Shown: positions 31,903 to 57,118 of the stretch, piece by piece | Layout: each line of letters starts with the position of its first letter | Numbering within the stretch: the first letter of the stretch is position 1 | Origin: Bryobacterales bacterium | Lineage (GTDB): Bacteria > Acidobacteriota > Terriglobia > Bryobacterales > Bryobacteraceae | DNA: 64,000 nt | Reading direction: 5' to 3' | NCBI GenBank assembly: GCA_963707465.1 | Contig: CAVPQK010000028.1 | Span: 33,638 to 97,637 of the forward strand | Made by a program: the position numbers and the translations under genes | Notes under the pieces: model-generated | Seen by the model: the letters and a program-made list of their open reading frames with translations, nothing else | What the model was told of the DNA's origin: nothing | Databases searched by the model: none

Positions 31903-33480
31903 GTGGCGAGTATGCGCTTGAAAATGAGTGTTGCCGTTATCGGTTTCATCACGATACTGTCGCAGGAAGCCGCCGGGGGGTGTACGCCGAACGGAAACAA
32001 GTTCGACCTGGCGCCCTTGCTAAACGCGGTCGGGCAATATGACGAGAGCGTGGCCGTCCTGCCCGGCGGCGGCCTCAACGGCGCGGACCTGGTGATCGGA
32101 ACAGCCTTGGATACACGTGCGCTGCTGCCGGTCGGGTTTGTGGGCGACGTCATGGCGGATGCGATGTACGTCCAGCGCGACGCCTCGGATTGCGGCGCGG
32201 ACCTGGAGGGAGAACTACCCTACATCTCTTCCGCCGTCCTGGGGGATTTCGAGATATTCGGCCACCCCATAGTCGTGGCCGATCCCGCGCACAACGCTTT
32301 CTTTCTCGCCGATCTGCGGTACAACGGCGCCGGCATGGCAGTCGGGCTGCTCAAAACCACGCCGGCGATTCTCCTCAATACGGCCAACTGCCCGAACGGC
32401 ACGGTGGCGAACACGGTTCCCTGCTTCGTCGAGGCGGGCCAGATCGCCAATTACGAGACGTTCGAAACCATCACCAACCTGTTCGACCCTTCCATTGCGG
32501 TGGACCAGCGGACCACCGGGACCGGCGCCGGCGATGTGTACGTGGTCAGCGCGCAAACCAACCTCGCTGGCAAGGATCAGCCATCCTCGCTTACGCTCTC
32601 GGCCTGCGCCAACAGCATGGAGGTGTGCGGGTCGCAAATCACCATCAGCGGCGCGGACCAGCGGGCCGGCGCTCCCTGGGTTTATGTGCAGCCGAATGGC
32701 GTTATTACGGTTTCCTTCGTGAATGCACAAGAGGTTAGCCCCTCCAGTCCGCTCGAAATCCGTTTCGTCGACTGCACGCCGCGCGGAGCCCCCGAATCCC
32801 CCACTTGCGGCACGCCGATCGCCGTCCTGACCGAAAACCAGCCAGCGGGCATTCCGGGCGAGATCCAACTTACCCCGCAAAATATCAACCCGATTGTGCT
32901 CGAGTCCCAGGACCCCACGCTTCCCAAGCACGTGGACCGCCTGGAGAGTGACGGCACGACCGTGACCACATTTCTGGTATACGACCGTTGTGACGTGGCG
33001 CTCGACGCGGTGGGCGATGCCTACCCGCTTTGTCCGAAAACCGATGTGGTGGTTACATGCTCGACCGACGGCGGGGATACCTGGTCTCCGATCCAGAAGG
33101 TGTCCGCTGCCGAGGGCCAGCAATTATTCGGAAACATCGCGCTGGATGCGTCCACCGGGACCGTGAACATTACCTACTACTCGACCGAGAACGACCCGCT
33201 GAAGACGCGCATGCAAGTCTTTCTCGCCCAGATCCTGCCTGGCCAGACGACGGCCGGCACGCCGCAGCAGATTACCTCGTCTCTGTACGACGGCCCGCTC
33301 GGCGGTTTCAATAATACCGAAAGCCTGCCCGGCAACTATCTGGGCATTGCCGCGGGAGGCACCGGAGTCGCCGGCCAAAGTGTGGTCTATATCCACTTCA
33401 CCGGCAGCGCCGCCAACGGAGACTATGGCGGCGTGCCGTTTCCGGTGATCAACAATGTCCTGACGAGATTCCAGTATTAG
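31903..33480 (+). CDS. Secreted cysteine-rich protein with BNR/Asp-box (sialidase-fold-like), paralog 1
   Basis: 525 aa. Signal peptide. Asp-box STDGGDTWS. Collinear with ORF 33495..35288 (e.g. GAGDVYV, STG TVNI/SIVYY, GTG.AGQS blocks). Confidence 0.65.
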   Translation: MASMRLKMSVAVIGFITILSQEAAGGCTPNGNKFDLAPLLNAVGQYDESVAVLPGGGLNGADLVIGTALDTRALLPVGFVGDVMADAMYVQRDASDCGADLEGELPYISSAVLGDFEIFGHPIVVADPAHNAFFLADLRYNGAGMAVGLLKTTPAILLNTANCPNGTVANTVPCFVEAGQIANYETFETITNLFDPSIAVDQRTTGTGAGDVYVVSAQTNLAGKDQPSSLTLSACANSMEVCGSQITISGADQRAGAPWVYVQPNGVITVSFVNAQEVSPSSPLEIRFVDCTPRGAPESPTCGTPIAVLTENQPAGIPGEIQLTPQNINPIVLESQDPTLPKHVDRLESDGTTVTTFLVYDRCDVALDAVGDAYPLCPKTDVVVTCSTDGGDTWSPIQKVSAAEGQQLFGNIALDASTGTVNITYYSTENDPLKTRMQVFLAQILPGQTTAGTPQQITSSLYDGPLGGFNNTESLPGNYLGIAAGGTGVAGQSVVYIHFTGSAANGDYGGVPFPVINNVLTRFQY

Positions 33481-33494
33481 GAGGAGCGAGCAAA

Positions 33495-35288
33495 ATGAAG
33501 ACATTGAAAACCATCCTGATTGCCTGCCTCGTGGGATCGATGATGGCGATAGCGCTCGGTTCAGAGAATACGCGGGGCCCCCATTCGCGCGCCAAACGGC
33601 CACCGATTCCGGCCAACTTGCGGCGCTCGGCAACCCTCCGATTCCTGGCGTCCGAGGAAGGCCGCAGCCTCATGCAAGTCGCCGGACATCCGTTGTCCGG
33701 ATATTTCAACCAGGCGTTCGGCAATCCGTCAGCGGCGGCGCTGGAGGCAGCCCAAGCCCGGCTGCCGCGCCTCACCGCCCTCTCCAGCCCGCGCGCCGAG
33801 GTCCCGGCGGCGACGGTGCCGTGCACGGGAGACTCCGGGGCGCGCTTTAACCTGGAGCCGCGCGCCGGCGCGGTCCCCCAGCAGAGCGCGGCCGCCGACT
33901 TCATCCTGAACGGCGCCGCCGCGGGGGCGGACTTGATCGTGCAGACGGCCAACGACTGGCGCGGCGCTTTCCCCAGCAGCACCTGGGATAACAGCACGAG
34001 CGGTTATTACGTGCATCGCTCCACCACCGCCGATTGCAGCGTGCAGTTTGAAGGTGGCCTGCCGAGCTTCACGGTTTCAGGCGGCACGGCCATGGGTGTG
34101 GGAGATGCTTCGGTGGTTGCGGATGCCACGCGCGGCGCCTTCTTCATGGCGGACATGCGTTTCGGGCCGATCTCGGGCATCGGCCTGTTCCGGGCTTCGG
34201 CGGCCAGTCTGCTGAACGCCACGATGTGTCCTAACGGCACGCATCTGCAAACGCAGGCCGCCTCCTGTTGGATGCAGACCCCGCCGGTGATCGTGAATCC
34301 GGTCTCACAACCGTATTTCGATTCGCAGTTCAATCTGGCAGTGGACGAGCGCTCGAGCGGGCTCGGCGCGGGGGATGTCTACATCGCGGCCAATGCATAC
34401 GTCACCAGCCAGAGTTCCGATGAGGTGTTCGTCACCGCCTGCACCAACTCCACGCTGAAGTGCAGTCCGCTGGTGCTCGTGAACAACAACGACATCGCCT
34501 TTCCCTATGTGCAGGTGCGGCCCGATGGCCTGATCGCCATTTCCTATGTGGGATCCGGCTCGCAACTCTTTTTCGTGACCTGCACACCGGCGGGCGCTCC
34601 GAATCCCCCCGTGTGCGGCCAGCCCACCGTAGTGACCACCATCGCCAATGCGCTTCCGACAAATAGCGAAGGGGAGCTGACCACGCCATTGAATGGCATT
34701 GACAATTTCGTGGTGTTCACCTACCCGAAACACGCCACTCGCCGGGAATCCAGCGGCAGCTTCACCACGTTCCTGGTCTATGACGATTGCAAAGATCCGT
34801 ATAGCTCCCCGCCACCGCCGACCCCCACCCCGACCATTTGCATGGATGCGGAAGTGAATCTGACTCTTTCGACCGACAATGGCCTAACGTGGTCGACGCC
34901 CGTCTCTGTCGATACCGCCAGCGGGCACCACTTCTATCCCTCCGTCGCGGTCGATCAGTCCACCGGAACGGTGAGCATCGTCTATTACACGACCGAAGGC
35001 AACGCTTTTCATCATTACGCGCGCGTGTTCCTGAACCAAATCGCGCCGGGCTCGACCGCGATTGGCGCCGCGCAACAGGTGACCACCGCGCTCGCTCCGA
35101 TGGATATCGCGCCCGGCTTTCTGAACCTTAACCTCGACGATTTCCACCTGGGGGCCATCGCCCGCGGCACGGGAACGGCGGGCCAGAGCCACCTCTATAC
35201 TTCATTCAATCGCACGCTGGTGGAAGGAACCTACCAGGGAAAACCGCTTCCCGACAAGAATAATCACATCAGCTTGAAGACATACTGA
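33495..35288 (+). CDS. Secreted cysteine-rich protein with BNR/Asp-box, paralog 2
   Basis: 597 aa. Signal peptide. Asp-box STDNGLTWS. AGGAG RBS upstream. Paralogous to 31903..33480. Confidence 0.65.
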   Translation: MKTLKTILIACLVGSMMAIALGSENTRGPHSRAKRPPIPANLRRSATLRFLASEEGRSLMQVAGHPLSGYFNQAFGNPSAAALEAAQARLPRLTALSSPRAEVPAATVPCTGDSGARFNLEPRAGAVPQQSAAADFILNGAAAGADLIVQTANDWRGAFPSSTWDNSTSGYYVHRSTTADCSVQFEGGLPSFTVSGGTAMGVGDASVVADATRGAFFMADMRFGPISGIGLFRASAASLLNATMCPNGTHLQTQAASCWMQTPPVIVNPVSQPYFDSQFNLAVDERSSGLGAGDVYIAANAYVTSQSSDEVFVTACTNSTLKCSPLVLVNNNDIAFPYVQVRPDGLIAISYVGSGSQLFFVTCTPAGAPNPPVCGQPTVVTTIANALPTNSEGELTTPLNGIDNFVVFTYPKHATRRESSGSFTTFLVYDDCKDPYSSPPPPTPTPTICMDAEVNLTLSTDNGLTWSTPVSVDTASGHHFYPSVAVDQSTGTVSIVYYTTEGNAFHHYARVFLNQIAPGSTAIGAAQQVTTALAPMDIAPGFLNLNLDDFHLGAIARGTGTAGQSHLYTSFNRTLVEGTYQGKPLPDKNNHISLKTY

Positions 35289-42908: not shown

Positions 42909-43097
42909 ATGACGAGTTCTTTGCGCAACCTGTTGACAGACGATCGAGGCCAGGACCTGATCGAATATACGCTGCTGATGGCCTTTGTGGCGCTTGCGTC
43001 CGCTACGCTGTTTGCCGCCGCCGGCACCAGCGTCAGCCTGATCTGGAGCACAACCAACTCTCAGTTGACCGCCGCGGCAGCCAGCGCGGCCAGCTAG
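42909..43097 (+). CDS. flp: Flp/Fap-family type IVb pilin (62 aa)
   Basis: ATG 42909 preceded by AGGAGG. DDRGQDLIEYTLLMAFVALASATLF is the Flp G/x-x-x-x-E-Y processing and hydrophobic motif. Confidence 0.75.
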   Translation: MTSSLRNLLTDDRGQDLIEYTLLMAFVALASATLFAAAGTSVSLIWSTTNSQLTAAAASAAS

Positions 43098-43199: not shown

Positions 43200-46034
43200 A
43201 TGACCAGAATTGCCGACCTGCTGGCCCGCGATTTTTCGAGACCTATCGAAGAGTTCGTCAAGGTCGACAACCACGATCCGGATACTGTCTTCACCGAACT
43301 GACCGAATACATTGCGACGGATCGTATCAAAGCCGAGTACGAGCGCCTGTTTTCCGCGATGGCGGCCGCTTCGAAATCGTCCAGCGAAAACATTGGAGTC
43401 TGGATTTCCGGATTCTTCGGCTCAGGCAAATCCTCCTTCGCGAAGAACCTCGGGTATGTTCTGGCGAACCGCGAAGTACATGGCGCCCCCGCCAGTTCGC
43501 TTTTCCTGAAGCAGGTGGAATCCAAGCGGGTCACCGAGTGCGTGGAGTTCCTCAATGCAGCGGTCCCGTACGAGACCTTCATGTTCGACGTTCAGGTGGA
43601 GCTGCCGGTCGAAATCAAGCCGGAGCAGCTCATTGAAGCCATGTACCGGGTCCTGCTGCGCGATCTTGATTATGCGGAAGACCCCGATATCGCGGAGCTG
43701 GAGATTGAACTCGAAAAAGAGGGCAAGCTGGCGGCGTTTCAGGATCTCTGTCAGGCGGAATACCAGGAAGAGTGGAGAAAGCTCCGCAAAAGCAGCCGGA
43801 AACTTGAAGGCACCAGCGCCTTGCTTCACCGGCTCGATCCCCGAAGTTACCCCGCGACTGACACGTGGTTGAACATGGTTACGGCCCGGCCTTCAAGAAC
43901 CTTGAGTGTCAAAGACCTGGTTGACAGGTCATTCGATCTATGCAACATCCGCCGTCACGGGAAGGCCTTCGCTTTCGTCCTGGACGAAATGGGCCAATTC
44001 GGCGAACGCCTCGGAAACCTGCTCGAAATCGTCGAACGGTTTGGCAGGGAAAGCCGTGAACGGTCGAACGCCGGGAACATCCCGGGGCCCGTGTGGATCA
44101 TCGTTACGGCCCGGCAAGATCTGGAAGAGATCGACAAGTACCTGGTAGCCAACTGCATCGACCTGCCCAAACCACAGGACCGTTTCAGGCACCAGATCGA
44201 CCTATCCTCGGCCGGCATCCGCGAGGTTGTCACCCGCCGCGTGTTGCGCAAGAAGGAGAGCCAGGAGATTATCCTCAGGAAGCTGTTCCGCGAACGCGGT
44301 GCGTCGCTCAATCAGAATGTCAGGTTGGAAAAGAGCTCCCGCCACACGGAGTTCGACGAAGAGCAGTTTGTCCACTCTTATCCTTACCTTCCGCATTTGA
44401 TCGACCTCTCGGTCGACATCATGGCGGGCATGCACGTACAACCCAATGCGTCAAAGTACGTCGACAGCAGCAACCGTTCCATCGTCAAGCAGTCTTTCGA
44501 AATGCTCACGTCGGACCTGACCCGGCTCGCCGATGAGCCCGTCTCCGTCCTCGTGAGCATCGACAAGATCTATGAGCTGGTGGAAGGAAATACTCCCTGG
44601 GAGAAGCGGAAGGACATACTCGACATTCGCCAACGCTACGACGACGACAAAGACTACCCTGGGATGGCATCGCGAGTGGCGAAGGCCATATGCCTCATGG
44701 AGTTTGCCCAGACGGACCTGCCGCGCACGACGAAGAACATCGCCGCATTGCTGGTCCAGCGTGTCACGGAGGCCCCACCCGCACTTGCGGTTGCGGGGAT
44801 CCTCGATCACCTGAAAGGGGCGCAGTATGTCCACGAGACCAAGGCCGGATGGAAGCTCTATGATTTCGATGAACTGCGTCGCACGGCGGCCGCCCTGGGA
44901 TGGCTGGGCAGATGGGTGGGAGGAGTCACTCCCCGGAAGCCGGGGTGGCAGAGCGGACTGATCCAATGGGTGAAGAAGCTGCTGGCTCGCTCGTTGAATT
45001 GGTATACGTGGCCATTGCGCCAATTCCATGACTCAGTAAGTCAATCGCTCCAGGAAACAATCGGCGCCCTTGACCACCTATCGATGAACATGGTTGCCCT
45101 GGACCGCCATTCCATGAACATGGTGGCCCACGAGCGCAATCCGACCGATAGATTCGCGCCTCAGTTGTTGGACCACCTTTCCATGAATAGAGTCGCGCTG
45201 GACCGCCTGTCGATGGACATGATTGCCCTTGAAGCGCGGCTGGCGCGGGTGGAGAAGACCAGGGCCAGGATGGAAACGGACTGGGACCAGGAGAAAACGG
45301 CTTACATTATCGGACTCTTTGGCACCGGACGCCGGTATATCAATGAACTGATGCTCGAGCACATTGGAGAGAGGGCGAAATATTTTAGGGATACGATCGC
45401 CTTGCATCCAGGTCCGACACCGATGATCTACAGCGGCCATGCCACGGTGAGGCATCTGTCTCGCGCGCAAGAGCCGCCGGCTGTAATGGGCCGTATCTTA
45501 GAAGCGGTCAGCTCCGGATTCGCCACTGTGATTTTCGTCTATCGTCACCCTCTCGATTCGTTGTTGACGAATTGGATTTGGTGGCGGACATACATTCGCG
45601 AGAACGTCTTGATTTCTGGAATCTCGCAGGTTTATCAGAACACGGACGATCTATGTGCCGAGTTGGAGCGGAACTTTCTCGACTTCAAAGCCTTTGCCGA
45701 AGGCGACCCCGATTTTTTTGCGGGCATGCCAGGCCCGCCATTTCTGTCTTTTAGGCAGTTTGTCGAGGAAACCGATCTTCATTTCCAAGCCGCCCCGCTC
45801 ACGTTGCGCCTGGAGGACTTCATGATCGATCCTTGCCAAGAGTTTTCCAAGATCGCCGAACTCATGTCAGTCCCTCTCGAGCGGAGCCGCTTACGTATTG
45901 TCCCCCCGAAAACCAAGCCCTATGGCTATTTGGCTGTTAAAGACAAAGTCCCTCAATTCAGAGACTTTATTGACGGGCTGAATGCGGAGACAAAAGGGCG
46001 GATTGAGAAGCTCGGCTATGATATGACTGTGTAA
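43200..46034 (+). CDS. Fusion protein: BrxC/PglY-like P-loop ATPase region + decapeptide-repeat linker + sulfotransferase-like C-terminal domain
   Basis: 944 aa. The N-terminus (IADLLARDFSRPIEEFVKVD...TEYIATDRI...GVWISGFFGSGKSSFAKNLGYVL) matches my recollection of the BREX BrxC N-terminus and Walker A. Walker B-like AFAFVLDEMGQF. C-terminal ~250 aa carry IIGLFGTGRRY (5'-PSB-like loop) and VYRHPLDSLLT (R-x-P-x-D-x-x-x-S/T, 3'-PB-like), as in PAPS-dependent sulfotransferases. Confidence 0.7.
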   Translation: MTRIADLLARDFSRPIEEFVKVDNHDPDTVFTELTEYIATDRIKAEYERLFSAMAAASKSSSENIGVWISGFFGSGKSSFAKNLGYVLANREVHGAPASSLFLKQVESKRVTECVEFLNAAVPYETFMFDVQVELPVEIKPEQLIEAMYRVLLRDLDYAEDPDIAELEIELEKEGKLAAFQDLCQAEYQEEWRKLRKSSRKLEGTSALLHRLDPRSYPATDTWLNMVTARPSRTLSVKDLVDRSFDLCNIRRHGKAFAFVLDEMGQFGERLGNLLEIVERFGRESRERSNAGNIPGPVWIIVTARQDLEEIDKYLVANCIDLPKPQDRFRHQIDLSSAGIREVVTRRVLRKKESQEIILRKLFRERGASLNQNVRLEKSSRHTEFDEEQFVHSYPYLPHLIDLSVDIMAGMHVQPNASKYVDSSNRSIVKQSFEMLTSDLTRLADEPVSVLVSIDKIYELVEGNTPWEKRKDILDIRQRYDDDKDYPGMASRVAKAICLMEFAQTDLPRTTKNIAALLVQRVTEAPPALAVAGILDHLKGAQYVHETKAGWKLYDFDELRRTAAALGWLGRWVGGVTPRKPGWQSGLIQWVKKLLARSLNWYTWPLRQFHDSVSQSLQETIGALDHLSMNMVALDRHSMNMVAHERNPTDRFAPQLLDHLSMNRVALDRLSMDMIALEARLARVEKTRARMETDWDQEKTAYIIGLFGTGRRYINELMLEHIGERAKYFRDTIALHPGPTPMIYSGHATVRHLSRAQEPPAVMGRILEAVSSGFATVIFVYRHPLDSLLTNWIWWRTYIRENVLISGISQVYQNTDDLCAELERNFLDFKAFAEGDPDFFAGMPGPPFLSFRQFVEETDLHFQAAPLTLRLEDFMIDPCQEFSKIAELMSVPLERSRLRIVPPKTKPYGYLAVKDKVPQFRDFIDGLNAETKGRIEKLGYDMTV
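45069..45227 (+). repeat. In-frame 30-nt (decapeptide) repeats inside the BrxC-like fusion gene
   Basis: LDHLSMNMVA (45069..45098), LDRHSMNMVA (45099..45128), 13-aa spacer, LDHLSMNRVA (45168..45197), LDRLSMDMIA (45198..45227). Visible at the nucleotide level (ctKgaccRcc..tcSatgRa..). Confidence 0.9.
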
Positions 46035-46038
46035 GCGC

Positions 46039-46806
46039 CTATGCGCGCCGCGCCGCCCACGCGCGAGTCGTATAGATTGTCTCGATGGCCGTCAGACCGG
46101 CAATGCGCTTCTCGGCGAAATCCAGGAAGTCGCGGAAGAGTTCCGCACCTAATTGCACCTGGAGATCGTTTACCGAGCGCCACGCGCCGATATACTGCTC
46201 GGGAGTTTGGCGCACGCTGTGTCTGCCTTCGAGGTACAGAACGTCGGTGAATTGCGGCTTGGCGCTCAACAACTCGGTCAGCCGCTCGGTAATGCCGGAG
46301 CGGCCCGACGATACACGGCGGACGTCAGGCTTGAGCCGCGCGATCTGCGCCTCGATTTCGACCAGCACCGGGTTGGCTTCGATGAAGCGCGGATTCCACA
46401 GGGCCACAAATGCCCCGCCCGGCCGCAGGATGCGATGGAACTCGGCGCACGCTTTGTCGAAATCGGCCCAGTGAAGCGACGAAGCCATGCTCACCAGATC
46501 GGTTGAGCCGTCCGGCAATCCGGTGGCTTCCGCCGAACCTTTGCGCCAAACAATATCCGTCCCGCGCGACGCCGCGATGCCTTGCTCGCGCATGTCGTCA
46601 TTAGGTTCCACGGCGACGACTGAATGCAAGCCGCGGGCCGCGAGCATGCGCGTCCAAATGCCCGTGCCGGCGCCGACGTCGGCGGCATCGAGGCTGGCGG
46701 CATCGCGCCCGGCATAGCTCAGGATCGCGTTCGCGACCTGCGGCGCATATCCCGGCCGGAACTTAGCGTAGTCCCCTGCCAACCCTGTGAAATCTCCGTG
46801 TTTCAT
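46039..46806 (-). CDS. Class I SAM-dependent methyltransferase
   Basis: ORF 46039..46932. Start at ATG 46806 (MKHGDFTGLAGDYAKFRPGY), 13 nt after the upstream stop. Motif I DVGAGTGIWT. Post-I VVAVEPNDDM. Confidence 0.85.
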   Translation of the reverse strand: MKHGDFTGLAGDYAKFRPGYAPQVANAILSYAGRDAASLDAADVGAGTGIWTRMLAARGLHSVVAVEPNDDMREQGIAASRGTDIVWRKGSAEATGLPDGSTDLVSMASSLHWADFDKACAEFHRILRPGGAFVALWNPRFIEANPVLVEIEAQIARLKPDVRRVSSGRSGITERLTELLSAKPQFTDVLYLEGRHSVRQTPEQYIGAWRSVNDLQVQLGAELFRDFLDFAEKRIAGLTAIETIYTTRAWAARRA

Positions 46807-46819
46807 GGCTGTTTCATCG

Positions 46820-47596
46820 CTACGCCGGCTCACTACCGGATAGCGCGTCCTCGAGCTGGAGTTCTCCGTCCCTGACCATATCCTGGTACAGCGCCACGTC
46901 TTCCGGATTATCGATTTCGCCCCATTGGCCATCGGTGGCGAAGGTGCTGATGGGGGCCAGCTTTCCGGCCAGCAGCCGGCGCAGCAATCCGGTCACATCA
47001 AGGCGATCGCGGATCGCCGCATCCAGTGTGCTGAGTAGCGCCTCGACAGCACTCCATGCCGACGGCGTGAATTTGAAGAGGCCCATATATTGCCCCTCGA
47101 TATCCTCGATCCGCGCCGTCTTGCCGCCGATCTCCAGCAATTGGCCCGCGGCATCGACCCCGAAGGTTTCGGCGTCGGCCAAGGGATCGGCAAAACGCCG
47201 GGTCCACAGGCGGCGCCAGGCCCGGTCGTAACTGATCACCAACTGGCCCGCCGCAGCGGCCAGGCCGCGCACCAACTCGCCGCGGTAGAAGATGTCGCCA
47301 TAGCTGACGATGACCGGTCCCTCCCGCAGCCAGGTCGCGGCCGCGGCGAGCGACATCACCATATTGGTTTCGGCCCATCGTTCGTTGGCGAAATAGGAGA
47401 CTCCGGGAAAATCGACCATCTCGGCGCGATAACCGCGAACGATCCCGATCTCGTCCGCCCCGCCCCGCCTGAGTGCCGCGATCTGGCGCTCGATCAACGG
47501 CTTGCCTGCGAGCTCGACCAGGCACTTCGGGCGATCGGCGCCCAGATGCCCCATGCGGCTGCCGCGGCCGGCGGCGAGAATAACGGCGCGCATCAT
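46820..47596 (-). CDS. Nucleotidyltransferase (NTP_transf_3/LicC-like; candidate CTP:phosphoglutamine cytidylyltransferase analogue)
   Basis: ORF 46820..48043 is a long false extension. The true start ATG 47596 overlaps the upstream stop (ATGA). MMRAVILAAGRGSRMG..PKCLVELAGKPLIERQI is the sugar-/phospho-nucleotidyltransferase signature. Confidence 0.8.
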   Translation of the reverse strand: MMRAVILAAGRGSRMGHLGADRPKCLVELAGKPLIERQIAALRRGGADEIGIVRGYRAEMVDFPGVSYFANERWAETNMVMSLAAAATWLREGPVIVSYGDIFYRGELVRGLAAAAGQLVISYDRAWRRLWTRRFADPLADAETFGVDAAGQLLEIGGKTARIEDIEGQYMGLFKFTPSAWSAVEALLSTLDAAIRDRLDVTGLLRRLLAGKLAPISTFATDGQWGEIDNPEDVALYQDMVRDGELQLEDALSGSEPA

Positions 47597-48195
47597 GCGA
47601 GCCCGAAAACCTGGCGGAACAGCGCCACGTCGGCAGGCGAGAACTGGGCGGACCGCTCCGGGTGCCACATGATACCAATTATAGGCTCGGCCGAATGGCG
47701 AATCGCTTTGACTACGCCATCGTCGGCGACCGCCCAGACTTCCAGCGGCGGCCGCGAGTCGAAGGCGGCAAAGCGATGATAGCTGTTGACCTCTTTCCGC
47801 TCGCCGTCGATTCGGATCGCCTGACATGGCGCCACATGGCCTTCGACGCGACGTAACGGAATATCGAAACGCTGCTGAACCACTTGCATGCCGCGGCACA
47901 CGCCCAGCACCGGCAGCCCGCGCTGCTGGACCCAATCGAGCAACGCATTTTCGACGGCATCGCGTTCGGGGGCATCGCCGCCCAACGCCGCCAGATCGTT
48001 GCCGCCGGTCAACACCAACCCGCCGATGCCGGCCCCTTCGCACAAAGCCAGAGCCACGTCGGTGACGTTGGGGATCGGCACCGGAAGCAGTCCGCAGGCC
48101 GCCAGGAACTTAGTCCACGCCTGATCCAGGCAATCGCGGCGCTCGCCATAGCCTGGAACCACCCATACCCGCTGGGTGACAGCGACGGCTCTCAT
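47593..48195 (-). CDS. Class I glutamine-amidotransferase-like (peptidase C26) hydrolase
   Basis: Start ATG 48195 overlaps the upstream stop (ATGA). Nucleophile elbow LGVCRGMQ and GIMWHPE His-Glu context. Confidence 0.8.
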   Translation of the reverse strand: MRAVAVTQRVWVVPGYGERRDCLDQAWTKFLAACGLLPVPIPNVTDVALALCEGAGIGGLVLTGGNDLAALGGDAPERDAVENALLDWVQQRGLPVLGVCRGMQVVQQRFDIPLRRVEGHVAPCQAIRIDGERKEVNSYHRFAAFDSRPPLEVWAVADDGVVKAIRHSAEPIIGIMWHPERSAQFSPADVALFRQVFGLA

Positions 48196-51100
48196 GCGAT
48201 GACCAGGACCTTCTGGTTGGTGCAATCCAGGCAAAGCGTTCGCGCCTTCTGCCAGCGCAGGAACAGGGCTTCGCCGGCGCCGATGACAGCGGGAATGCCC
48301 AATTCGCCGGCGCGGATCGCCATGTGTGAATTGGCGCCGCCGAACTGGGTGACGAATCCGCTGATTTCGCGAGTGAAGATCCAGTCGAAGCCTGGATCCG
48401 CGCTGGGCACGAAGAGAATCTTTCCGGCGAAGGTCTCCGGCGGGTCACCGATCGAGGCGACCGGCGCGGTGACGCTCTTTCGCGTAATGAAATTCGGCTG
48501 GCTCGGGGGAAGGTGAAATGCGAACACTTCGGCGGGCGACGCGATGACCGGCGGAAGCACGAGATTGCGTGTCAGCGCGTGACGCTCCCTGCCGCGCGCG
48601 ACACTCTCCAGCAAAGCCTCGCGCACCGAACCGCTTTCGCTATAGAGCGTTTGGATCACGCCGTAATCCAGAAATGCACAGTCCTCTACCGAGAGACCGT
48701 GATCTGCACCCAACTGCCCGATCAGCGACAGAGCGTGGCTCAGGCTTCGCGTGAACACGAACTTCGCATATTCGCGGCCCTCGATGCCGGCCTTGATGAA
48801 CTCGATGAAACTCAAGACATCGATGTCGAGCTCATGTTCCTTGAGCAGATGCTCGATGCGGCGCAACTGCTCGATCGAAAGCGCGAAGCGCGGGGGCGCG
48901 GGCGGCGCCGGCCGGGCACTCAACCAGTCGAAATAGAGATTGGGCGCCTCGTCGTAGCGCGGCGACAGAATGTCGTAGGTCCCCGGCCGGAGGTGGCCGT
49001 AGCGCGCCAGGAAGTCGGGCTTTGGAAGCTGCGCGAAATCCCGCCCGATGCGCGATCCGACGGTATCGACACTGGCCATGAACGCCGCGACCTCTTCGGC
49101 ATTGAGCACGCCCACCTCGATGAAGGACTCGAGCATTTGAACCGCTATAAAGCCGGCCCGCGCGAGACCGGCGAACGGCAGCGTGCCGTACCGCTTGCAG
49201 TCCTCGATCAACCAGTAGATGCGGCTGATCTTGTCGATCTCCGCGTTGCAGATTAACGGGAGCCGCTCGGCCAGCAGGTCGATTTTCGCGCGGTCGCGCC
49301 GCCACAGCGCGGTTTCGCCATGCATGATGCGATTGGTAAGGCGCCGTAAGGCGCGCGAAAGGTCGGCTAGGTCCTGCGGAGAAAATCCGTATTCGGCGAG
49401 CCGGCCCATGCGCTTCGGCAAATCGAGGGCGTAGCAGGAGAAGACGATTTCAAATTCGACCTTATCGTGGAGATGCGGCTCCGACAGGAGGCGATCGATG
49501 TAGTAGTTGACCAGACGCGCGGCGAGATCGTCTGGCAGGTCGCGTGGTACGAAGGAATTGAAGCTGACACGCACATCGATATAAGGCAGTCCGTGAAAGC
49601 TGACCAACAGCGGAAAACTGCGCAGATTCTGGTAGCCGTAATTGTCCCGCTGATAGGCCCAGATCGCGTCGGTGATGAGTTCGCAATAAAGCGACAACGC
49701 CAGAGGCCCAGGCCGCACCCCGATAATCTCGGCCGGGTTCCAGTCCGGCATGACGCCGAAGATCGCGCGGCTGCCGTGCAGGTAGGGATGCGGGCGGCTG
49801 AGCAGCTCGACCTTTCGGGCAACATCGGCCAGCGCGGTGTCGACTTGCGTGTCGGCTGCCCGCCCATGGCGGTCGACGGCGAGAGGGCGCACTTGCAAAA
49901 GGTAGAGCTGCCCGTCATCGCCGAGGGCGAATTCCACGTCTATGGCATCACACCCGAGCGTGGTTTCGAGCTCGCGGACCAGAGCGACGACCGGCGCGAG
50001 CGGCGGTGGGCAGGCATCCGGCCGCGATCGGAGGCACAGAAAGGTCTTGAGATTGTCGCCGGCGCCGGCGGTCACGCGATCGGTCAAGCCGGAATGGTCG
50101 TCGTAATTAATAACGAAGTAGGGACCGCCGCTGGGACTGCGCGAGAAGACCACCCCGGCCATCGCCACACGCTCGAGCATGGGCTGTACAAAGACTTGAT
50201 CGTCGTCTCTTCCGGTGGTGCCTGCATCGTGGGTGAACGAGGCAATCACCCGGTCGATTGCCTGTGCCACGGCGGCGCTGCCGGCAACGCCGAGAACGGA
50301 ATCGTACCTGCCGGCCTGGGAGTTGCGGGCCGCGCCATCCTCGCCCCGTGCACTGCTCCGCACGATGACGCGATCTGAACCCCAGGGAGCCGCCGCGACG
50401 GCGGCCAGCACCCGAGCGGCGTCCGCGCGCCAATCGCCAACCGAGAACCGCACCTGGGGCAGGACGCGCCCGCCGCGCAGAAGGGGCGCCAGCAGTTCCA
50501 GAGATTCCGCCTTCGTTTGGAAGGCGACCGTCCGCACCGGCTGCGCCGCACCGGCGCCATTGCGCCTGGCGCCTAACGCCAGGATGCGATCAACCGCCGC
50601 CGAAACGTCGAGTGACCCATAATTGTCGAGCACCAGGTCGGGCGCTTCGGGCGCCTCCGCCGGCACGTCCAGGCCGACCACGTCGCACGTCTCGCCGCGC
50701 CGCGCCGCCGCGTAGATGCCCTTGGTATCCCGGCGCTCCAGCTCTTCCATCGGGACCCGCAGGTAGATCTCGCGATAACCGGGGATGTTCTCGCGGTTCC
50801 AACGCTGCACCTCGTGAAACAGCGAGATGGTGGCGCAGACCACATCGGCGCCCTGCTCTGCCAGCAACCGGCACAGCCGCGCATTCCGCATCGCCGATCG
50901 CCGCCGATGGTCTGCGCTGTGGTCAAGATCTTCGGCGATCACAGCGCGGAGCGTGTCGCCATCGAGGAAGGTTGCCGCTCGACCGGAGGCTCGCAGCCGG
51001 CTCCACAACTCTCGCCCCAAGGTGGTCTTGCCGGCGCCGGATAACCCGGTAATCCAGTAGACGCGCCCCGGCGTGGCGTGCTGTTCGGCTTCAGGCTGGC

Positions 51101-51218
51101 CTCCCGCCTCTGGTGTGTTGGTCAGCACAGAAGTCTTCAAGCGTTCATGGAGCTGCCGGTCAGCGGCAATCCGGTCCCGGGGTAAATGTGTCAATTGTGT
51201 TAACGATGATGAGCGCAC
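48192..51218 (-). CDS. Bifunctional protein: CysC-like (adenylylsulfate-kinase-family) kinase fused to PPDK/PEP-synthase-like ATP-grasp + phosphohistidine (PEP-utilizer) enzyme
   Basis: N-terminal VYWITGLSGAGKTTLGREL..FLDGDTLR (APS-kinase family). Middle VIVRSSARGEDGAARNSQAGRYDSVLGV (PPDK_N). C-terminal ISGFVTQFGGANSHMAIRAGELGIPAVIG (swivelling phospho-His domain). The exact start is uncertain. Confidence 0.8.
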   Translation of the reverse strand: MRSSSLTQLTHLPRDRIAADRQLHERLKTSVLTNTPEAGGQPEAEQHATPGRVYWITGLSGAGKTTLGRELWSRLRASGRAATFLDGDTLRAVIAEDLDHSADHRRRSAMRNARLCRLLAEQGADVVCATISLFHEVQRWNRENIPGYREIYLRVPMEELERRDTKGIYAAARRGETCDVVGLDVPAEAPEAPDLVLDNYGSLDVSAAVDRILALGARRNGAGAAQPVRTVAFQTKAESLELLAPLLRGGRVLPQVRFSVGDWRADAARVLAAVAAAPWGSDRVIVRSSARGEDGAARNSQAGRYDSVLGVAGSAAVAQAIDRVIASFTHDAGTTGRDDDQVFVQPMLERVAMAGVVFSRSPSGGPYFVINYDDHSGLTDRVTAGAGDNLKTFLCLRSRPDACPPPLAPVVALVRELETTLGCDAIDVEFALGDDGQLYLLQVRPLAVDRHGRAADTQVDTALADVARKVELLSRPHPYLHGSRAIFGVMPDWNPAEIIGVRPGPLALSLYCELITDAIWAYQRDNYGYQNLRSFPLLVSFHGLPYIDVRVSFNSFVPRDLPDDLAARLVNYYIDRLLSEPHLHDKVEFEIVFSCYALDLPKRMGRLAEYGFSPQDLADLSRALRRLTNRIMHGETALWRRDRAKIDLLAERLPLICNAEIDKISRIYWLIEDCKRYGTLPFAGLARAGFIAVQMLESFIEVGVLNAEEVAAFMASVDTVGSRIGRDFAQLPKPDFLARYGHLRPGTYDILSPRYDEAPNLYFDWLSARPAPPAPPRFALSIEQLRRIEHLLKEHELDIDVLSFIEFIKAGIEGREYAKFVFTRSLSHALSLIGQLGADHGLSVEDCAFLDYGVIQTLYSESGSVREALLESVARGRERHALTRNLVLPPVIASPAEVFAFHLPPSQPNFITRKSVTAPVASIGDPPETFAGKILFVPSADPGFDWIFTREISGFVTQFGGANSHMAIRAGELGIPAVIGAGEALFLRWQKARTLCLDCTNQKVLVIA

Positions 51219-54487: not shown

Positions 54488-57118
54488 ATGGATATCAATC
54501 GTTTCACGGAAAAACTCCAGGAGGCGATCCGGGCGGCCCAAAGCAAAGCCACCCGGTACGGCCATCAACAGCTCGACGTCGAGCACCTCTTTGCCGCCCT
54601 GCTCGAACAGGAGGGCGGCTTGGCAGGCTCTATCCTGTCACGCGCGGGGGTCAACGTCGACACGCTGCGGCCGCGGCTCGAACACGAGCTGGACCGGCTG
54701 CCGAAGGTCACTGGGCCATCCGGCGCTCCTGACCAGATTTTCGTCAGCGCCCGCCTGAACCGGCTACTGACCGCGGCGGAAGACGAGGCCAAAAAGCTCA
54801 AGGACGAATATATTTCCGTCGAGCATGTGCTGCTGGCGCTCACCGACGACGGCGGCTTCAGCGGACGGCTGTTACGCGAATACGGCGCGTCGCGCGAGCG
54901 GCTGATGCAGGCGCTGCGCGAAGTGCGCGGCAGCCAGCGGGTGACATCGCAGAATCCGGAGGCCACTTACGAAGCCCTGGAGCGTTACGGCCGCGACCTG
55001 ACCAAGCTGGCGAGCCAGGGCAAGCTGGACCCCGTGATCGGCCGCGACGAGGAGATCCGGCGCGTGATCCAGGTGCTGTCGCGGCGCACCAAGAACAACC
55101 CGGTGCTGATCGGCGAACCGGGCGTGGGCAAGACCGCGATCGTGGAGGGACTGGCGCTGCGCATCGTGCGCGGCGACGTTCCGGAAGGCCTGAAGAACCG
55201 GCGCATTGTGTCGTTGGATATGGGCGCGCTGATCGCGGGCGCCAAGTTTCGCGGCGAGTTTGAAGAGCGGCTGAAGGCGGTCTTGAAAGAGGTGCAGGAG
55301 GCCGCCGGCGACATCATCCTGTTCATCGACGAGCTGCACACGGTGGTGGGCGCGGGCAAGGCCGAAGGGTCCATGGACGCCGGCAACCTGCTGAAGCCCA
55401 TGCTGGCGCGCGGCGAGCTGCACTGCATCGGCGCCACCACGCTCGACGAATATCGCAAGAACATCGAAAAGGATGCGGCGCTGGAGCGGCGCTTCCAACC
55501 GGTGCGGGTGGACCAGCCTTCGGTCGAAGACACCATCTCGATTTTGCGCGGCCTGAAGGAACGGTACGAAGTGCATCACGGCGTGCGCATCAAGGATTCG
55601 GCGCTGGTGGCCGCGGCGATTTTGTCGAATCGCTACATCACGGACCGGTTTCTGCCCGATAAAGCTATCGACCTGGTGGACGAGGCGGCGGCCAAGCTGC
55701 GCACCGAGATCGACTCCATGCCGGCGGAGTTGGACGAAATCCTGCGACGCACGATGCAGCTTGAAATCGAGCGCTCGGCGCTGAAAAAGGAGAAGGACGC
55801 GGCGTCACGCGACCGGCTGAAGAAGCTCGAAAAAGAACTCGGGAATCTGAAGGCGGAAGGCGATGCCTTGAAGGCGCGCTGGCAAGCCGAGAAGCAGACG
55901 GTCGCCAGTTTGCGCGCGTTGCGGGAGCAGATCGAGCAGACCAAGGTGGAGATCGAGAAGGCGGAGCGCGCCTACGACCTGAATCGGGCGGCCGAGCTGA
56001 AGTATGGGAAGCTGGCGGAGCTGGAGAAGCGCTTGCATGCCGAGTTGGAGCAGTTCACGAAGAAGCAGGCGCAGTCGCCGCTGATCAAAGAAGAGGTGGG
56101 CGAGGAAGATATCGCGGAGGTGGTCAGCCGCTGGACGGGCGTACCGGTGACCAAGCTGCTGGCGGGCGAGATGCAGAAGCTGCTGCAGCTGGAAGATGAG
56201 TTGCACCAGCGCGTGATCGGGCAGGATGAAGCCGTCACGGCGGTGGCGGAGGCGGTGATTCGCGCGCGCTCCGGATTGAAGGATCCGAACCGGCCGATCG
56301 GCAGCTTTATTTTCCTGGGACCGACGGGCGTGGGCAAGACCGAGCTGGCGCGGGCGCTGGCGCAGTTTCTGTTCGACGACGAACGCGCCATGATTCGCAT
56401 CGACATGTCGGAATATCAGGAGAAACACACCGTGGCGCGGCTGATCGGCGCGCCGCCCGGATACGTGGGGTATGAAGAGGGCGGCCAATTGACCGAAGCG
56501 GTGCGGCGGCGGCCGTATTCCGTGGTGCTATTCGATGAGATTGAGAAGGCGCACCACGATGTGTTCAACGTGATGCTGCAGGTGCTCGACGATGGGCGCC
56601 TCACGGATGGGCAGGGGCGCACGGTGGACTTCCGCAACACCATCGCGATCATGACTTCCAACATCGGCAGCGCGCGCATCCTGGAGTATCGCGGCGGGTT
56701 TGCCGGCGAGGGATACGAACGGATGAAGGAAGCCGTGCTGGAGGAGATGCGGCGTCATTTCCGGCCGGAGTTTCTGAATCGCGTGGATGAGGCGATCGTG
56801 TTTCATGCGCTGGGCGAGGACCAGTTGAAGCAGATCGTGGAGATCCAGTTGGAGCGGTTGCGGGCGCGGCTGGCGGACCGGCACATCACGCTGAGGCTCA
56901 CCGACGCGGCGCGGTTGAACCTGGTGCATACCGGCTTCGATCCGCATTACGGCGCGCGTCCGCTGAAGCGCGCGATTCAGAAGAAGGTGGAGACGCCGCT
57001 GGGCCGGATGATTTTGAAGGGCGAGGTGCGCGACGGGCAGCAGCTTACGGTGGATGCCGACGGGGAGGGGGAACTGACGTTCGCGACAACGGCAGAGAAG
57101 GCGTCGCGGCAGGGCTAG
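54488..57118 (+). CDS. clpB: ATP-dependent chaperone/disaggregase ClpB
   Basis: 876 aa. Clp_N repeats, Walker A GEPGVGKT (NBD1) and GPTGVGKT (NBD2), long coiled-coil M-domain between them. Confidence 0.97.

What the first reader, a model, noticed from the sequence alone, without database searches (positions are those of the whole stretch)
43200..46034. BrxC/PglY-like P-loop protein with no other BREX gene, fused to a sulfotransferase-like domain
The first ~80 residues, including GVWISGFFGSGKS, and the following ~500 residues look like the BREX ATPase BrxC/PglY. The window contains no PglX methyltransferase, PglZ phosphatase, BrxA/B/L or Lon-like gene. The protein is also ~250 aa shorter than typical BrxC in that region. 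Instead it ends in a ~250-aa domain with an IIGLFGTGRRY loop and a VYRHPLDSLLT motif. These resemble the 5'-phosphosulfate- and 3'-phosphate-binding motifs of PAPS-dependent sulfotransferases. I am not aware of this domain combination being described.
Basis: partly seen in the sequence, partly recalled or inferred. Interest (0 to 1): 0.85.

Follow-up and report, generated by a model that had tools for sequence, protein, structure and literature searches.

The report
BREX ATPase half fused to phosphoramidate-type transferase
A soil Acidobacteria gene joins the ATP-binding front half of the phage-defence protein BrxC to a sulfotransferase-shaped enzyme domain, and that domain is genetically tied not to BREX or sulfate activation but to a gene set resembling the Campylobacter pathway that makes a phosphoramidate donor for decorating surface sugars, a chemistry so far reported only from Campylobacter.

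Summary
ORF 43200-46034 (+) encodes 944 aa. Residues 1-553 are a clear homologue of the BrxC N-terminal unit (AAA+ ATPase plus first winged helix). Residues 700-944 adopt a sulfotransferase fold. No other BREX gene is in the window.

The architecture is real: more than 100 full-length homologues exist in Acidobacteriota.

The interpretation needs revising. The sulfotransferase-like domain is a small, isolated family. It also occurs alone, with a helical module, or fused to a methyltransferase plus GT2 glycosyltransferase.

In 42 of 71 evaluable loci it lies next to a four-gene cassette, whichever N-terminus it has:
- an APS-kinase-like domain fused to a PPDK-like kinase (NCBIfam PRK05849, E=1.7e-277);
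- a C26 amidohydrolase that JGI names N5-(cytidine 5'-diphosphoramidyl)-L-glutamine hydrolase;
- a nucleotidyltransferase;
- a SAM methyltransferase.

This matches the Campylobacter Cj1415-Cj1420 O-methyl-phosphoramidate pathway, whose product, 3'-phospho-CDP-amidate, is a PAPS analogue. Distant members (29-33% identity) keep the linkage with an unfused, rearranged cassette.

Best reading: a candidate phosphoramidate transferase for surface glycans that has captured a BrxC-derived ATP-dependent assembly module. The donor, the acceptor and the ATPase role are inferred, not shown.

The parts
43200..46034 (+). Whole ORF, 944 aa: BrxC N-terminal unit + helical module + sulfotransferase-fold domain
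   Evidence: ORF list and translation. The exact protein is on JGI contig Ga0665309_00001528. More than 100 full-length homologues at 55-82% identity.
43200..44858 (+). BrxC-type N-terminal unit (aa 1-553): AAA+ ATPase core (~25-345), helical lid (~350-480), winged helix (~489-553)
   Evidence: PADLOC BrxC E=3.9e-110. PDB BrxC NTD E~1e-37. Foldseek top hits 9zdx/9zll/9zn5. Domain boundaries from the AF2 model. Corresponds to BrxC(Aci) 1-551, i.e. AAA+ plus wHTH1 (PMC13326643).
43395..43433 (+). Walker A, GVWISGFFGSGKS (K77)
   Evidence: Coordinates. K77 is conserved in 40/43 family members. Identical to the BrxC motif in the PDB alignment.
43974..44000 (+). Walker B, FVLDEMGQF (D262, E263)
   Evidence: Coordinates. 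D262 43/43, E263 34/43.
44859..45299 (+). Helical 'mid' module (aa 554-700): YDFDELRR...VKKLLAR.L.WYT.P...F..SVS motif, LDHxSMNMVALD repeats, two long helices
   Evidence: Also occurs without BrxC-N at the start of ~420-aa relatives, and in three tandem copies in P0246/P0247. Helices 586-642 and 655-687 in the model. No Pfam or NCBIfam hit.
45066..45129 (+). 30-bp x 2.1 tandem repeat encoding the LDHxSMNMVA repeat in the linker
   Evidence: Tandem Repeats Finder. This region is length-variable in the family alignment.
45300..46031 (+). Sulfotransferase-fold domain (aa ~700-944), candidate phosphoramidate transferase
   Evidence: AF2 pLDDT 77. The top 50 PDB fold hits are all sulfotransferases, found again with the full-length model. 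Only 129 representatives in 1.84e9 proteins.
45306..45338 (+). P-loop-like IIGLFGTGRRY, in the position of the sulfotransferase 5'-phosphosulfate-binding loop
   Evidence: Strand 700-705 then helix 711-726. G708, G710, R711 and Y713 are invariant.
45537..45569 (+). VYRHPLDSLLT, in the position of the sulfotransferase 3'-phosphate-binding motif (R-x-x-x-D-x-x-x-S/T)
   Evidence: Strand 775-781 then helix 784-801. R782, H783, P784, D786, S787, L789 and T790 are invariant.
46039..46806 (-). SAM-dependent methyltransferase (255 aa), tail-to-tail with the ORF (4-bp gap); candidate counterpart of Cj1419/Cj1420
   Evidence: Methyltransf_11/25/23. Conserved next to ST-family genes.
46820..47596 (-). 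MobA-like/sugar-phosphate-type nucleotidyltransferase (258 aa); candidate counterpart of Cj1416
   Evidence: NTP_transf_3 E=1.8e-21. Found in 40 of 81 ST-family loci.
47593..48195 (-). Class-I glutamine-amidotransferase-fold/Peptidase_C26 hydrolase (200 aa); candidate counterpart of Cj1417
   Evidence: Best NCBIfam hit is NF045546, gamma-glutamyl-CDP-amidate hydrolase, E=1.7e-32 but below cutoff. JGI names this exact protein N5-(cytidine 5'-diphosphoramidyl)-L-glutamine hydrolase.
48192..51140 (-). 982-aa fusion: APS-kinase-like domain (aa 24-188) + PPDK_N ATP-grasp + PEP-utilizer swivel domain (aa 203-981); candidate Cj1415 + Cj1418 counterparts
   Evidence: APS_kinase 115 bits. NF004508/PRK05849 E=1.7e-277. 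The PRK05541 subfamily cutoff is passed, while the canonical CysC models TIGR00455 and PRK03846 are not. The same parts are separate genes in L090/L091.

Best explanation
The ORF belongs to an Acidobacteriota family of sulfotransferase-fold transferases. This family acts as the fifth gene of a cassette homologous to the Campylobacter jejuni O-methyl-phosphoramidate (MeOPN) donor pathway. The cassette (glutamine-kinase-like + APS-kinase-like fusion, C26 amidohydrolase, nucleotidyltransferase, SAM methyltransferase) is inferred to make 3'-phospho-CDP-amidate. That compound is a PAPS analogue with phosphoramidate in place of sulfate. The C-terminal domain is inferred to bind this donor in the way sulfotransferases bind PAPS: a P-loop for the 5' diphosphoramidate, RHPLDSLLT for the 3' phosphate, and a conserved His as base. 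It would then transfer the phosphoramidate to a hydroxyl of a surface polysaccharide, with methylation by the adjacent methyltransferase. In this member the transferase and its helical module are fused to the BrxC N-terminal unit (AAA+ plus first winged helix). In BREX, that unit self-associates on ATP binding and did not bind DNA on its own. Here it most likely acts as an ATP-dependent oligomerisation or gating scaffold for the transferase, not as part of a DNA-directed BREX system. Shown here: the homologies, the fold, the architecture series and the gene linkage. Inferred: the donor, the acceptor and the role of the ATPase.
For: BrxC N-terminal unit. The boundary at aa 553 coincides with the BrxC(Aci) 1-551 construct and with the start of the free-standing ~420-aa relatives.

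Sulfotransferase fold: plus weak TEG12/Teg14 sequence hits at the LRLEDFMIDP motif.

Architecture is real and conserved.

Linkage to the cassette:
- 42/71 evaluable ST-family loci have it within 10 kb, 39 of them convergent; for fusions it is 17/28 with a median gap of 51 bp.
- Reciprocal test: both evaluable cassette-anchored loci have an ST-family gene right after the methyltransferase.
- Unbiased clustering finds only the cassette genes as recurrent neighbours.
- Distant members at 29-33% identity keep the linkage with an unfused, reordered cassette whose proteins are 36-52% identical.

Cassette identity: PRK05849 E=1.7e-277; best hit gamma-glutamyl-CDP-amidate hydrolase; the kinase domain passes PRK05541 but not the canonical CysC models; JGI name for the hydrolase; pathway chemistry in PMC11800397.

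Glycan acceptor: P0242 is methyltransferase + GT2 + this domain. Wza/Wzc/Wzx/Wzy genes lie beside cassette loci L086/L089. Glycosyltransferases lie beside L091/L092.

ATPase: Walker A, Walker B and sensor 2 are conserved.
Against: No biochemical data exist for any member, and the donor is inferred only from gene linkage.

The cassette hydrolase scores below the NCBIfam cutoff (113 vs 250 bits), and the nucleotidyltransferase and methyltransferase hits are generic.

The equivalences PRK05849 = Cj1418 family and PRK05541 = Cj1415 family rest on my memory plus domain composition. I could not retrieve the Campylobacter sequences.

The exhaustive profile search reached nothing resembling the ~600-aa Campylobacter MeOPN transferases Cj1421/Cj1422. 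So this would be a non-orthologous transferase.

About 40% of family loci lack the cassette within 10 kb, although genomes have several ST-family genes and apparently one cassette.

Fold-match scores are modest (E~1e-3, TM~0.4, model pLDDT 77).

The residue aligned with the BrxC arginine finger is Arg in only 17/43 fusion proteins, and some members have internal deletions in the ATPase. The module may therefore be degenerating rather than regulatory.
Confidence: 0.55

Rival explanations
1. One reading: the C-terminal domain is a genuine PAPS-dependent sulfotransferase, and the neighbouring APS-kinase domain supplies PAPS for sulfation of a glycan or metabolite.
For: All top fold matches are PAPS-dependent sulfotransferases. 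The 3'-PB-like motif is invariant. A full-length APS_kinase domain lies three genes away. Some loci carry extra Pfam-recognised sulfotransferases near the cassette: the L005 Sulfotransfer_3 protein and the L090 Stf0-like protein.
Against: The kinase domain is fused to a glutamine-kinase-like protein, or operonic with one. It passes only the PRK05541 subfamily model and fails the canonical CysC models. No ATP sulfurylase is among the called genes within 10 kb. The C26 hydrolase and nucleotidyltransferase have no role in sulfate activation but are exactly what the CDP-amidate pathway needs. The P-loop sequence GxFGTGRRY differs from canonical PKxGTT-type loops, and no sulfotransferase HMM matches.
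Confidence: 0.2
2. It is a BREX-derived anti-phage or DNA-modification system. The BrxC module would recognise or load on foreign DNA, and the transferase would modify DNA or a phage component using the cassette's nucleotide donor.
For: Strong BrxC homology, with weak SspC-type hits. The ORF is GC-poorer than its flanks. An integrase and a resolvase lie just beyond the cassette in L004. In Campylobacter, MeOPN status affects phage infection (titles and text).
Against: No PglZ, PglX, BrxA, BrxB or BrxL is in the window, and none appears as a recurrent neighbour. The retained BrxC segment corresponds to the construct that showed no DNA binding; the alpha+beta and second wHTH regions implicated in DNA binding are absent. 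The same transferase occupies the same position without any BrxC part. The family is confined to essentially one phylum and its catalytic domain is very highly conserved, unlike arms-race genes. Fusions to GT2 glycosyltransferase and neighbouring polysaccharide genes point to glycans.
Confidence: 0.1
3. The BrxC part is a functionless or decaying passenger from an old gene fusion. The protein works simply as a transferase, like its shorter paralogues.
For: The residue aligned with the BrxC Arg finger is Arg in only 17/43 members. Some members keep only aa ~342-553 or have internal deletions of aa ~100-230. Fusion and mid-only forms are intermingled in the ST-domain tree.
Against: More than 100 full-length copies retain the 550-aa module at 55-82% overall identity, with Walker A Lys 40/43, Walker B Asp 43/43 and sensor-2 Arg 38/43. 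Several genomes keep two fusion copies. Such retention across orders implies purifying selection on the module.
Confidence: 0.12

Closest known systems
BrxC/PglY, the AAA+ (ORC/Cdc6-clade) ATPase of BREX systems (structures 9zdx, 9zll, 9zn5)
   Same: Residues 1-553 are homologous to the BrxC N-terminal unit (AAA+ core, helical lid, first wHTH). The Walker A motif is identical, and Walker B and sensor 2 are conserved. The boundary matches the experimentally defined 1-551 unit.
   Different: It lacks the alpha+beta domain, the second wHTH and the long C-terminal coiled coil of BrxC. No PglZ, PglX or BrxB is nearby. It carries a catalytic transferase domain instead. It falls below the NCBIfam BrxC whole-protein cutoff. 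The Arg finger is degenerate in much of the family.
Campylobacter jejuni O-methyl phosphoramidate (MeOPN) capsule-modification system, Cj1415-Cj1422
   Same: The neighbouring cassette has the same enzyme set: an APS-kinase-like kinase, a PPDK-like (glutamine) kinase, a C26 amidohydrolase, a nucleotidyltransferase and SAM methyltransferase(s), with a candidate transferase gene adjacent. Polysaccharide genes lie nearby in several loci.
   Different: A different phylum (soil/peat Acidobacteriota). The two kinases are fused in most loci. The candidate transferase has a sulfotransferase fold, is conserved at its C-terminus and variable at its N-terminus, and is not detectably related to the ~600-aa Cj1421/Cj1422. 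No poly-G phase-variation tract. The modification itself has not been observed in these organisms.
PAPS-dependent sulfotransferases (e.g. SULT1A1, StaL/Teg12, heparan-sulfate 3-OST, TPST)
   Same: Same overall fold. A P-loop after the first strand and an R-x-x-x-D-x-x-x-S/T element at a strand-helix junction, where sulfotransferases bind the 5' and 3' phosphates of PAPS. The canonical motifs are from established knowledge of the family.
   Different: No match to any Pfam/NCBIfam sulfotransferase model. Divergent P-loop (GxFGTGRRY). Genomic partner is a phosphoramidate-donor cassette rather than a sulfate-activation one. The family is isolated in sequence space, with 129 representatives in 1.84e9 proteins.

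Membership tests
BREX system / BrxC | N-terminal ORC/Cdc6-clade AAA+ ATPase with BrxC-type Walker A/B, followed by a wHTH | tested here: met
   PADLOC BrxC E=3.9e-110. PDB BrxC NTD E~1e-37. Foldseek E=3e-18. Motif conservation.
BREX system / BrxC | Full BrxC architecture (~1200 aa: alpha+beta domain, second wHTH, C-terminal coiled coil) | tested here: not met
   Only model positions 6-543 of 1180 are matched. NCBIfam gives 360 bits against a cutoff of 400. The BrxC architecture is described in PMC12839542.
BREX system / BrxC | Co-located PglZ phosphatase, PglX/BrxX methyltransferase and, in type 1, BrxA, BrxB and BrxL | tested here: not met
   PADLOC scan of 46 window ORFs. No such recurrent neighbour in 81 related loci.
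PAPS-dependent sulfotransferases | Sulfotransferase alpha/beta fold | tested here: met
   The top 50 PDB fold hits are all sulfotransferases; E down to 1.1e-3, TM ~0.4. Found again with an independent full-length model.
PAPS-dependent sulfotransferases | Match to a curated sulfotransferase profile (Pfam Sulfotransfer_1/2/3/4, Stf0) | tested here: not met
   No hit for the protein or its C-terminal part. The relative P0258 reaches only 18.8 bits against a cutoff of 22.
PAPS-dependent sulfotransferases | 5'-PSB loop and 3'-PB motif in the canonical structural positions | tested here: inconclusive
   The positions fit: strand-loop-helix at 700-726 and strand-helix at 775-801. The 3'-PB-like residues are invariant. 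However, the P-loop sequence is non-canonical, and no residue-level structural alignment was available.
PAPS-dependent sulfotransferases | Use of PAPS as donor | not testable with these tools
   Needs enzymology. Context argues against it: no ATP sulfurylase among the genes within 10 kb, and the kinase is of the Cj1415-like subfamily.
MeOPN-type phosphoramidate modification system (Cj1415-Cj1422) | PPDK-like three-domain kinase of the L-glutamine-kinase family (Cj1418) | tested here: met
   NF004508/PRK05849 gives 922 bits against a cutoff of 501 over aa 203-981, with PPDK_N and PEP-utilizers domains. That PRK05849 is the Cj1418 family is from memory.
MeOPN-type phosphoramidate modification system (Cj1415-Cj1422) | Gamma-glutamyl-CDP-amidate hydrolase (Cj1417) | tested here: inconclusive
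   Best NCBIfam hit is NF045546 over its full length, but at 113 bits against a cutoff of 250. JGI names the exact protein N5-(cytidine 5'-diphosphoramidyl)-L-glutamine hydrolase.
MeOPN-type phosphoramidate modification system (Cj1415-Cj1422) | APS-kinase-like CDP-amidate 3'-kinase (Cj1415) and a cytidylyltransferase (Cj1416) | tested here: inconclusive
   The kinase domain passes PRK05541 (174 vs 127 bits) and fails the canonical CysC models. The nucleotidyltransferase hits are generic. Substrate specificity is untested.
MeOPN-type phosphoramidate modification system (Cj1415-Cj1422) | Transferase homologous to Cj1421/Cj1422 | tested here: not met
   The exhaustive profile search with the ST-like domain found 129 representatives, and every long one examined was accounted for by family architectures, none Campylobacter-like.
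MeOPN-type phosphoramidate modification system (Cj1415-Cj1422) | Presence of a P-N (methyl) phosphoramidate on a glycan | not testable with these tools
   Needs NMR or mass spectrometry of polysaccharide from a cassette-bearing acidobacterium.

The most novel reading that the evidence does not exclude
The fusion could be a new kind of BREX-derived device. In this reading, the BrxC ATP switch (possibly sensing phage infection or foreign nucleic acid through partners not yet recognised) gates phosphoramidate decoration of the cell-surface polysaccharide. The cell would then change or mask phage receptors on demand. That would be defence by regulated surface chemistry rather than by DNA discrimination.
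Probability: 0.07. Interest if true: 0.9.

Novelty: new variant of a known kind. Interest (0 to 1): 0.68.

Why it matters
Three points.

1. Phosphoramidate (P-N) glycan modification and its glutamine-kinase pathway are described in the literature held here as confined to Campylobacter. A conserved, widespread homologous cassette in abundant soil and peat Acidobacteriota suggests this chemistry is far more common in nature.

2. The transfer step of the Campylobacter pathway has not been reconstituted. A sulfotransferase-fold family tightly linked to the cassette is a chemically sensible candidate for an enzyme using the PAPS-like donor, and it can be tested directly in vitro.

3. It is a clear case of the BrxC N-terminal ATP-dependent assembly unit, cut at the same boundary used by structural biologists, being reused outside BREX on a metabolic enzyme. 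This bears on how defence ATPases evolve. It also warns that defence-finder hits to BrxC in Acidobacteriota are not BREX.

Tried and rejected
- **Truncated or pseudogenised BrxC, or an assembly chimera.** Rejected: more than 100 full-length homologues across several orders have conserved motifs.
- **Hidden BREX partners.** None in the PADLOC scan of window ORFs, in the unbiased neighbour clustering, or in the Pfam/PADLOC check of minor recurrent neighbours. Those were a second methyltransferase, a phosphoesterase, a TonB-type OMP and unknowns.
- **Sequence-level link to sulfotransferases.** A profile search of PDB sequences gave only E~0.1 hits to TEG12/Teg14. hhalign of the domain profile against the L005 Sulfotransfer_3 protein was uninformative, probability 1.4%.
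- **Solved Campylobacter MeOPN enzymes.** PDB sequence searches with three cassette proteins returned only generic APS kinases, amidotransferases and nucleotidyltransferases.
- **Primary papers on Cj1415/1416/1418.** PMC5938747, PMC5629633 and PMC5938751 are not held.
- **ST-domain tree to date the fusion.** Star-like, without support values; only a loose separation of fusion/mid forms from ST-only forms.
- **Phase-variation tracts.** None; the longest runs are T7 and C6.
- **Promoter and terminator scans.** Nothing above chance.
- **Upstream 247-aa and 62-aa ORFs.** Not conserved with the family, and no family hits.


Full report
**Observation.** The window has an ATG-initiated ORF at 43200..46034 (+) encoding 944 aa. 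The three quoted motifs are at aa 66-78, 703-713 and 780-790. The first 553 residues match BrxC models strongly, but only the first half of each model. PADLOC PDLC02476 gives E=3.9e-110 for aa 4-553 against positions 6-543 of 1180. NCBIfam BREX_BrxC gives 360 bits, under its 400-bit cutoff. Pfam gives nothing above threshold, and the last 294 residues hit nothing in Pfam or NCBIfam. Sequence search of the PDB finds the recently solved BrxC N-terminal-domain structures at E~1e-37 over aa 3-528. Walker A is identical, and the Walker B and Arg-finger positions align. An AlphaFold2 model of the whole protein (pLDDT 67.5) has those structures as its seven best fold matches, E 3e-18 to 5e-14. They are followed by RdrA, ORC/Cdc6 and STAND ATPases. 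A PADLOC scan of 46 ORFs called across the window found BrxC hits for this ORF only, and no PglX, PglZ, BrxA, BrxB or BrxL.

**The architecture is genuine.** More than 100 full-length homologues (55-82% identity, ~100% coverage) exist. The named ones come from Bryobacteraceae, and several contigs hold two copies. A scan of reference genomes returned 79 loci, almost all from Acidobacteriota MAGs from peat, bog and soil: Bryobacterales, Terriglobia, Acidoferrales, Ca. Sulfotelmatobacter and Korobacteraceae. The source contig is a 97.6-kb JGI metagenome contig. Within the family, the C-terminal ~245 aa are the most conserved part; GLFGTGRRY, HPGPTPMIYSGHAT and YRHPLDSLLTNWxWWR are nearly invariant. 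Residues ~625-700 are variable and repetitive.

**What the two halves are.** The literature shows that Acinetobacter BrxC residues 1-551 comprise the AAA+ ATPase and the first winged helix. This unit is ordered in cryo-EM, dimerises around ATP, is compatible with a heptameric ring, and binds BrxB:PglZ. On its own it showed no DNA binding; the downstream alpha+beta and second wHTH regions were implicated in that (PMC13326643). The full BrxC domain order is given in PMC12839542. Our protein keeps this 1-551 unit almost to the residue and nothing beyond it. In the fusion family the Walker A Lys (40/43), Walker B Asp (43/43) and sensor-2 Arg (38/43) are conserved. The residue aligned with the trans-acting Arg finger is Arg in only 17/43 members; the window's protein has it, as R328.

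For the C-terminal domain, an AlphaFold2 model (pLDDT 77, pTM 0.79) gave 50 of 50 top PDB matches to PAPS-dependent sulfotransferases. These include SULT1A1, SULT7A1, plant SOTs, StaL, TPST and heparan-sulfate 3-OST. The scores are modest, E from 1.1e-3 and TM about 0.4. The full-length model recovered sulfotransferases again. The only sub-threshold PDB sequence hits were TEG12 and Teg14, which I know as glycopeptide sulfotransferases. GLFGTGRRY lies in a strand-loop-helix, and RHPLDSLLT begins a helix directly after a strand. From established knowledge of the family, these are the settings of the sulfotransferase 5'-PSB and 3'-PB elements.

**The C-terminal module is independent, and the BrxC fusion is one variant among several.** A search with aa 690-944 found about 1000 relatives at 65-83% identity that are only ~290 aa or ~420 aa long. 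The ~420-aa forms begin at the equivalent of aa ~553 (YDFDELRR...), exactly where the BrxC match ends. An exhaustive HMM search of 1.84 billion representatives found only 129 proteins at E<=1e-3. None of the long hits examined is an ordinary sulfotransferase, so the family is small and isolated. The architectures found are:
- domain alone;
- one or three copies of the helical 'mid' module plus domain;
- full BrxC-N plus mid plus domain;
- forms keeping only BrxC aa ~342-553;
- forms with internal deletions of aa ~100-230;
- P0242, with SAM methyltransferase + GT2 glycosyltransferase + domain;
- P0284, with DUF4214 and a weak GT11-like region + domain.

**Genomic context.** Directly downstream of the ORF, tail-to-tail with a 4-bp gap, lie four genes on the minus strand:
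- a SAM methyltransferase (46039-46806);
- an NTP_transf_3 nucleotidyltransferase (46820-47596);
- a Peptidase_C26/GATase (47593-48195);
- a 982-aa protein with a complete APS_kinase domain, a PPDK_N ATP-grasp and a PEP-utilizer swivel domain (48192-51140).

The same block flanks homologues at 62% and 55% identity, in different orientations. A tblastn map of all loci shows the block within 10 kb of 42 of 71 evaluable ST-family loci, convergent in 39. It occurs with all three forms: fusion 17/28 (median gap 51 bp), mid+ST 11/17, ST-only 14/26. Genomes carry several ST-family genes, but in the genomes sampled only one of those loci carries the cassette, and loci without it often hold tandem ST paralogues. 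Starting instead from the cassette, both evaluable loci have an ST-family gene right after the methyltransferase. Both also lie beside Wza/Wzc/Wzx/Wzy-type polysaccharide genes. Unbiased clustering of all neighbours finds only the four cassette genes as widely recurrent, plus a second methyltransferase in 10 loci; nothing is BREX-like. The most telling result comes from distant ST-like members at 29-33% identity. They sit directly upstream of, and co-directional with, an unfused and reordered cassette: a separate 143-174-aa APS-kinase-like gene, a methyltransferase, a 771-aa PPDK-like protein, a C26 hydrolase and a nucleotidyltransferase. Those proteins are only 36-52% identical to the window's, and glycosyltransferases lie nearby. 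Linkage that survives this much divergence, rearrangement and fusion/fission indicates a functional unit.

**What the cassette is.** Four lines of evidence bear on its identity:
- NCBIfam places aa 203-981 of the 982-aa protein in PRK05849 (E=1.7e-277, above cutoff).
- Its kinase domain falls in the PRK05541 subfamily (above cutoff) but below the cutoffs of the canonical CysC models.
- The best hit of the 200-aa protein is gamma-glutamyl-CDP-amidate hydrolase, below cutoff.
- JGI independently names this exact protein, and many homologues, N5-(cytidine 5'-diphosphoramidyl)-L-glutamine hydrolase.

In Campylobacter jejuni, Cj1415-Cj1418 make CDP-phosphoramidate 3'-phosphate from glutamine, ATP and CTP. 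Cj1421/Cj1422 are the genetically defined MeOPN transferases, and Cj1419/Cj1420 are unassigned in that paper; from memory they are predicted methyltransferases (PMC11800397, PMC3907429). From my own knowledge, Cj1418 is the PPDK-like L-glutamine kinase, Cj1416 the cytidylyltransferase, Cj1417 the C26 hydrolase and Cj1415 the APS-kinase-like 3'-kinase. I could not retrieve the primary papers or sequences to verify this. The donor is a close analogue of PAPS, so a sulfotransferase-fold enzyme is a chemically natural acceptor-side catalyst. No ATP sulfurylase is among the genes within 10 kb.

**Interpretation.** The most likely reading (about 0.55) is that the ORF encodes a phosphoramidate-type transferase acting on a surface glycan. 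It would use the cassette's donor, with a BrxC-derived ATP-dependent self-association module attached through a helical linker. The homologies, fold, architecture series and linkage are shown. The donor, the acceptor and the role of the ATPase are inferred. The rivals are:
- a true PAPS sulfotransferase (0.2);
- a BREX-like defence or DNA-modification function (0.1);
- a decaying passenger ATPase (0.12; this concerns only the N-terminal part and is compatible with the transferase reading).

Points against the main reading: there is no biochemistry; the cassette annotation partly rests on sub-cutoff or automated names; nothing resembling the ~600-aa Campylobacter transferases was detected, and those have a conserved N-terminus and a variable C-terminus; and the fold-match statistics are modest.

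**Novelty.** No paper in the library holds both BrxC and sulfotransferase, or both methyl phosphoramidate and Acidobacteria. The 2026 BREX survey does not mention sulfotransferases or Acidobacteria. Reviews describe MeOPN as known only from Campylobacter and its glutamine kinase as C. jejuni-specific. As of 2025 the transfer step awaited elucidation. I class the finding as a new variant of known kinds: a MeOPN-type system in a new phylum, with a new candidate transferase class and an exapted BrxC module. It is not a member of BREX, nor a proven sulfotransferase.

Noticed in passing
window 45300-46031, and ST-family genes in L001-L085: The DNA encoding the ST-like domain is GC-poorer than its locus in 91 of 92 family members (median -7.5 points; here 52% vs 64% in the flanks). 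The cassette kinase is slightly GC-richer (+3 points). This persists across orders, so it is not simply a recent transfer of this gene. The cause is unknown.
   Followed up: partly
L005:8322-9800, also L014, L016, L060: In four loci a ~490-aa protein passing the Pfam Sulfotransfer_3 threshold (29.4 vs 27 bits) sits next to the same cassette. It is a second, unrelated sulfotransferase-like candidate partner.
   Followed up: partly
L090:17782-19509: Beside the unfused cassette there is a 575-aa protein with Stf0-type Sulphotransf + DUF6065 domains, followed by type I secretion genes (HlyD-like protein, C39-peptidase ABC transporter).
   Followed up: no
P0242, P0246, P0247 (representatives): P0242 fuses a SAM methyltransferase, a GT2 glycosyltransferase and the ST-like domain in one 903-aa protein. 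P0246 and P0247 carry three tandem copies of the helical 'mid' module before the domain, possibly a length-setting or oligomerising element.
   Followed up: partly
L018, L020, L022, L025, L034, L044, L046, L048, L049, L051: A second SAM methyltransferase paralogue (~263 aa, ~54% identical to the cassette one) recurs in 10 loci. It gives a generic PADLOC 'mad2' hit that reflects the methyltransferase fold.
   Followed up: partly
L004:19080-22573: A phage-type integrase and a resolvase lie just beyond the cassette in one homologous locus, hinting that the region can be mobile there.
   Followed up: no
L086:12297-13038: The ST-family gene next to this cassette is split into two overlapping pieces. 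This is either a frameshift or a sequencing error, so possibly a pseudogene.
   Followed up: no
window 42909-43097 (+): A 62-aa ORF just upstream (MTSSLRNLLTDDRGQDLIEYTLLMAFVALAS...) looks by eye like an Flp-type pilin, but it has no Pfam hit at E<=0.001. It is not conserved next to the family.
   Followed up: partly
window 30293-35288 (+): A radical-SAM/SPASM protein (512 aa) is followed by two proteins of 525 and 597 aa with no Pfam match, possibly a peptide-modification cluster. It appears unrelated to the finding.
   Followed up: no
window, various ORFs: The PADLOC scan of all window ORFs also gave hits to Csa3 (two ORFs, E=2e-19), PDC-M37B (2.4e-39), DolB (2.1e-29, probably the ClpB at 54488-57118), pVip, PD-T4-6 and others. 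These are probably generic domain similarities. The ORFs responsible were not identified.
   Followed up: no
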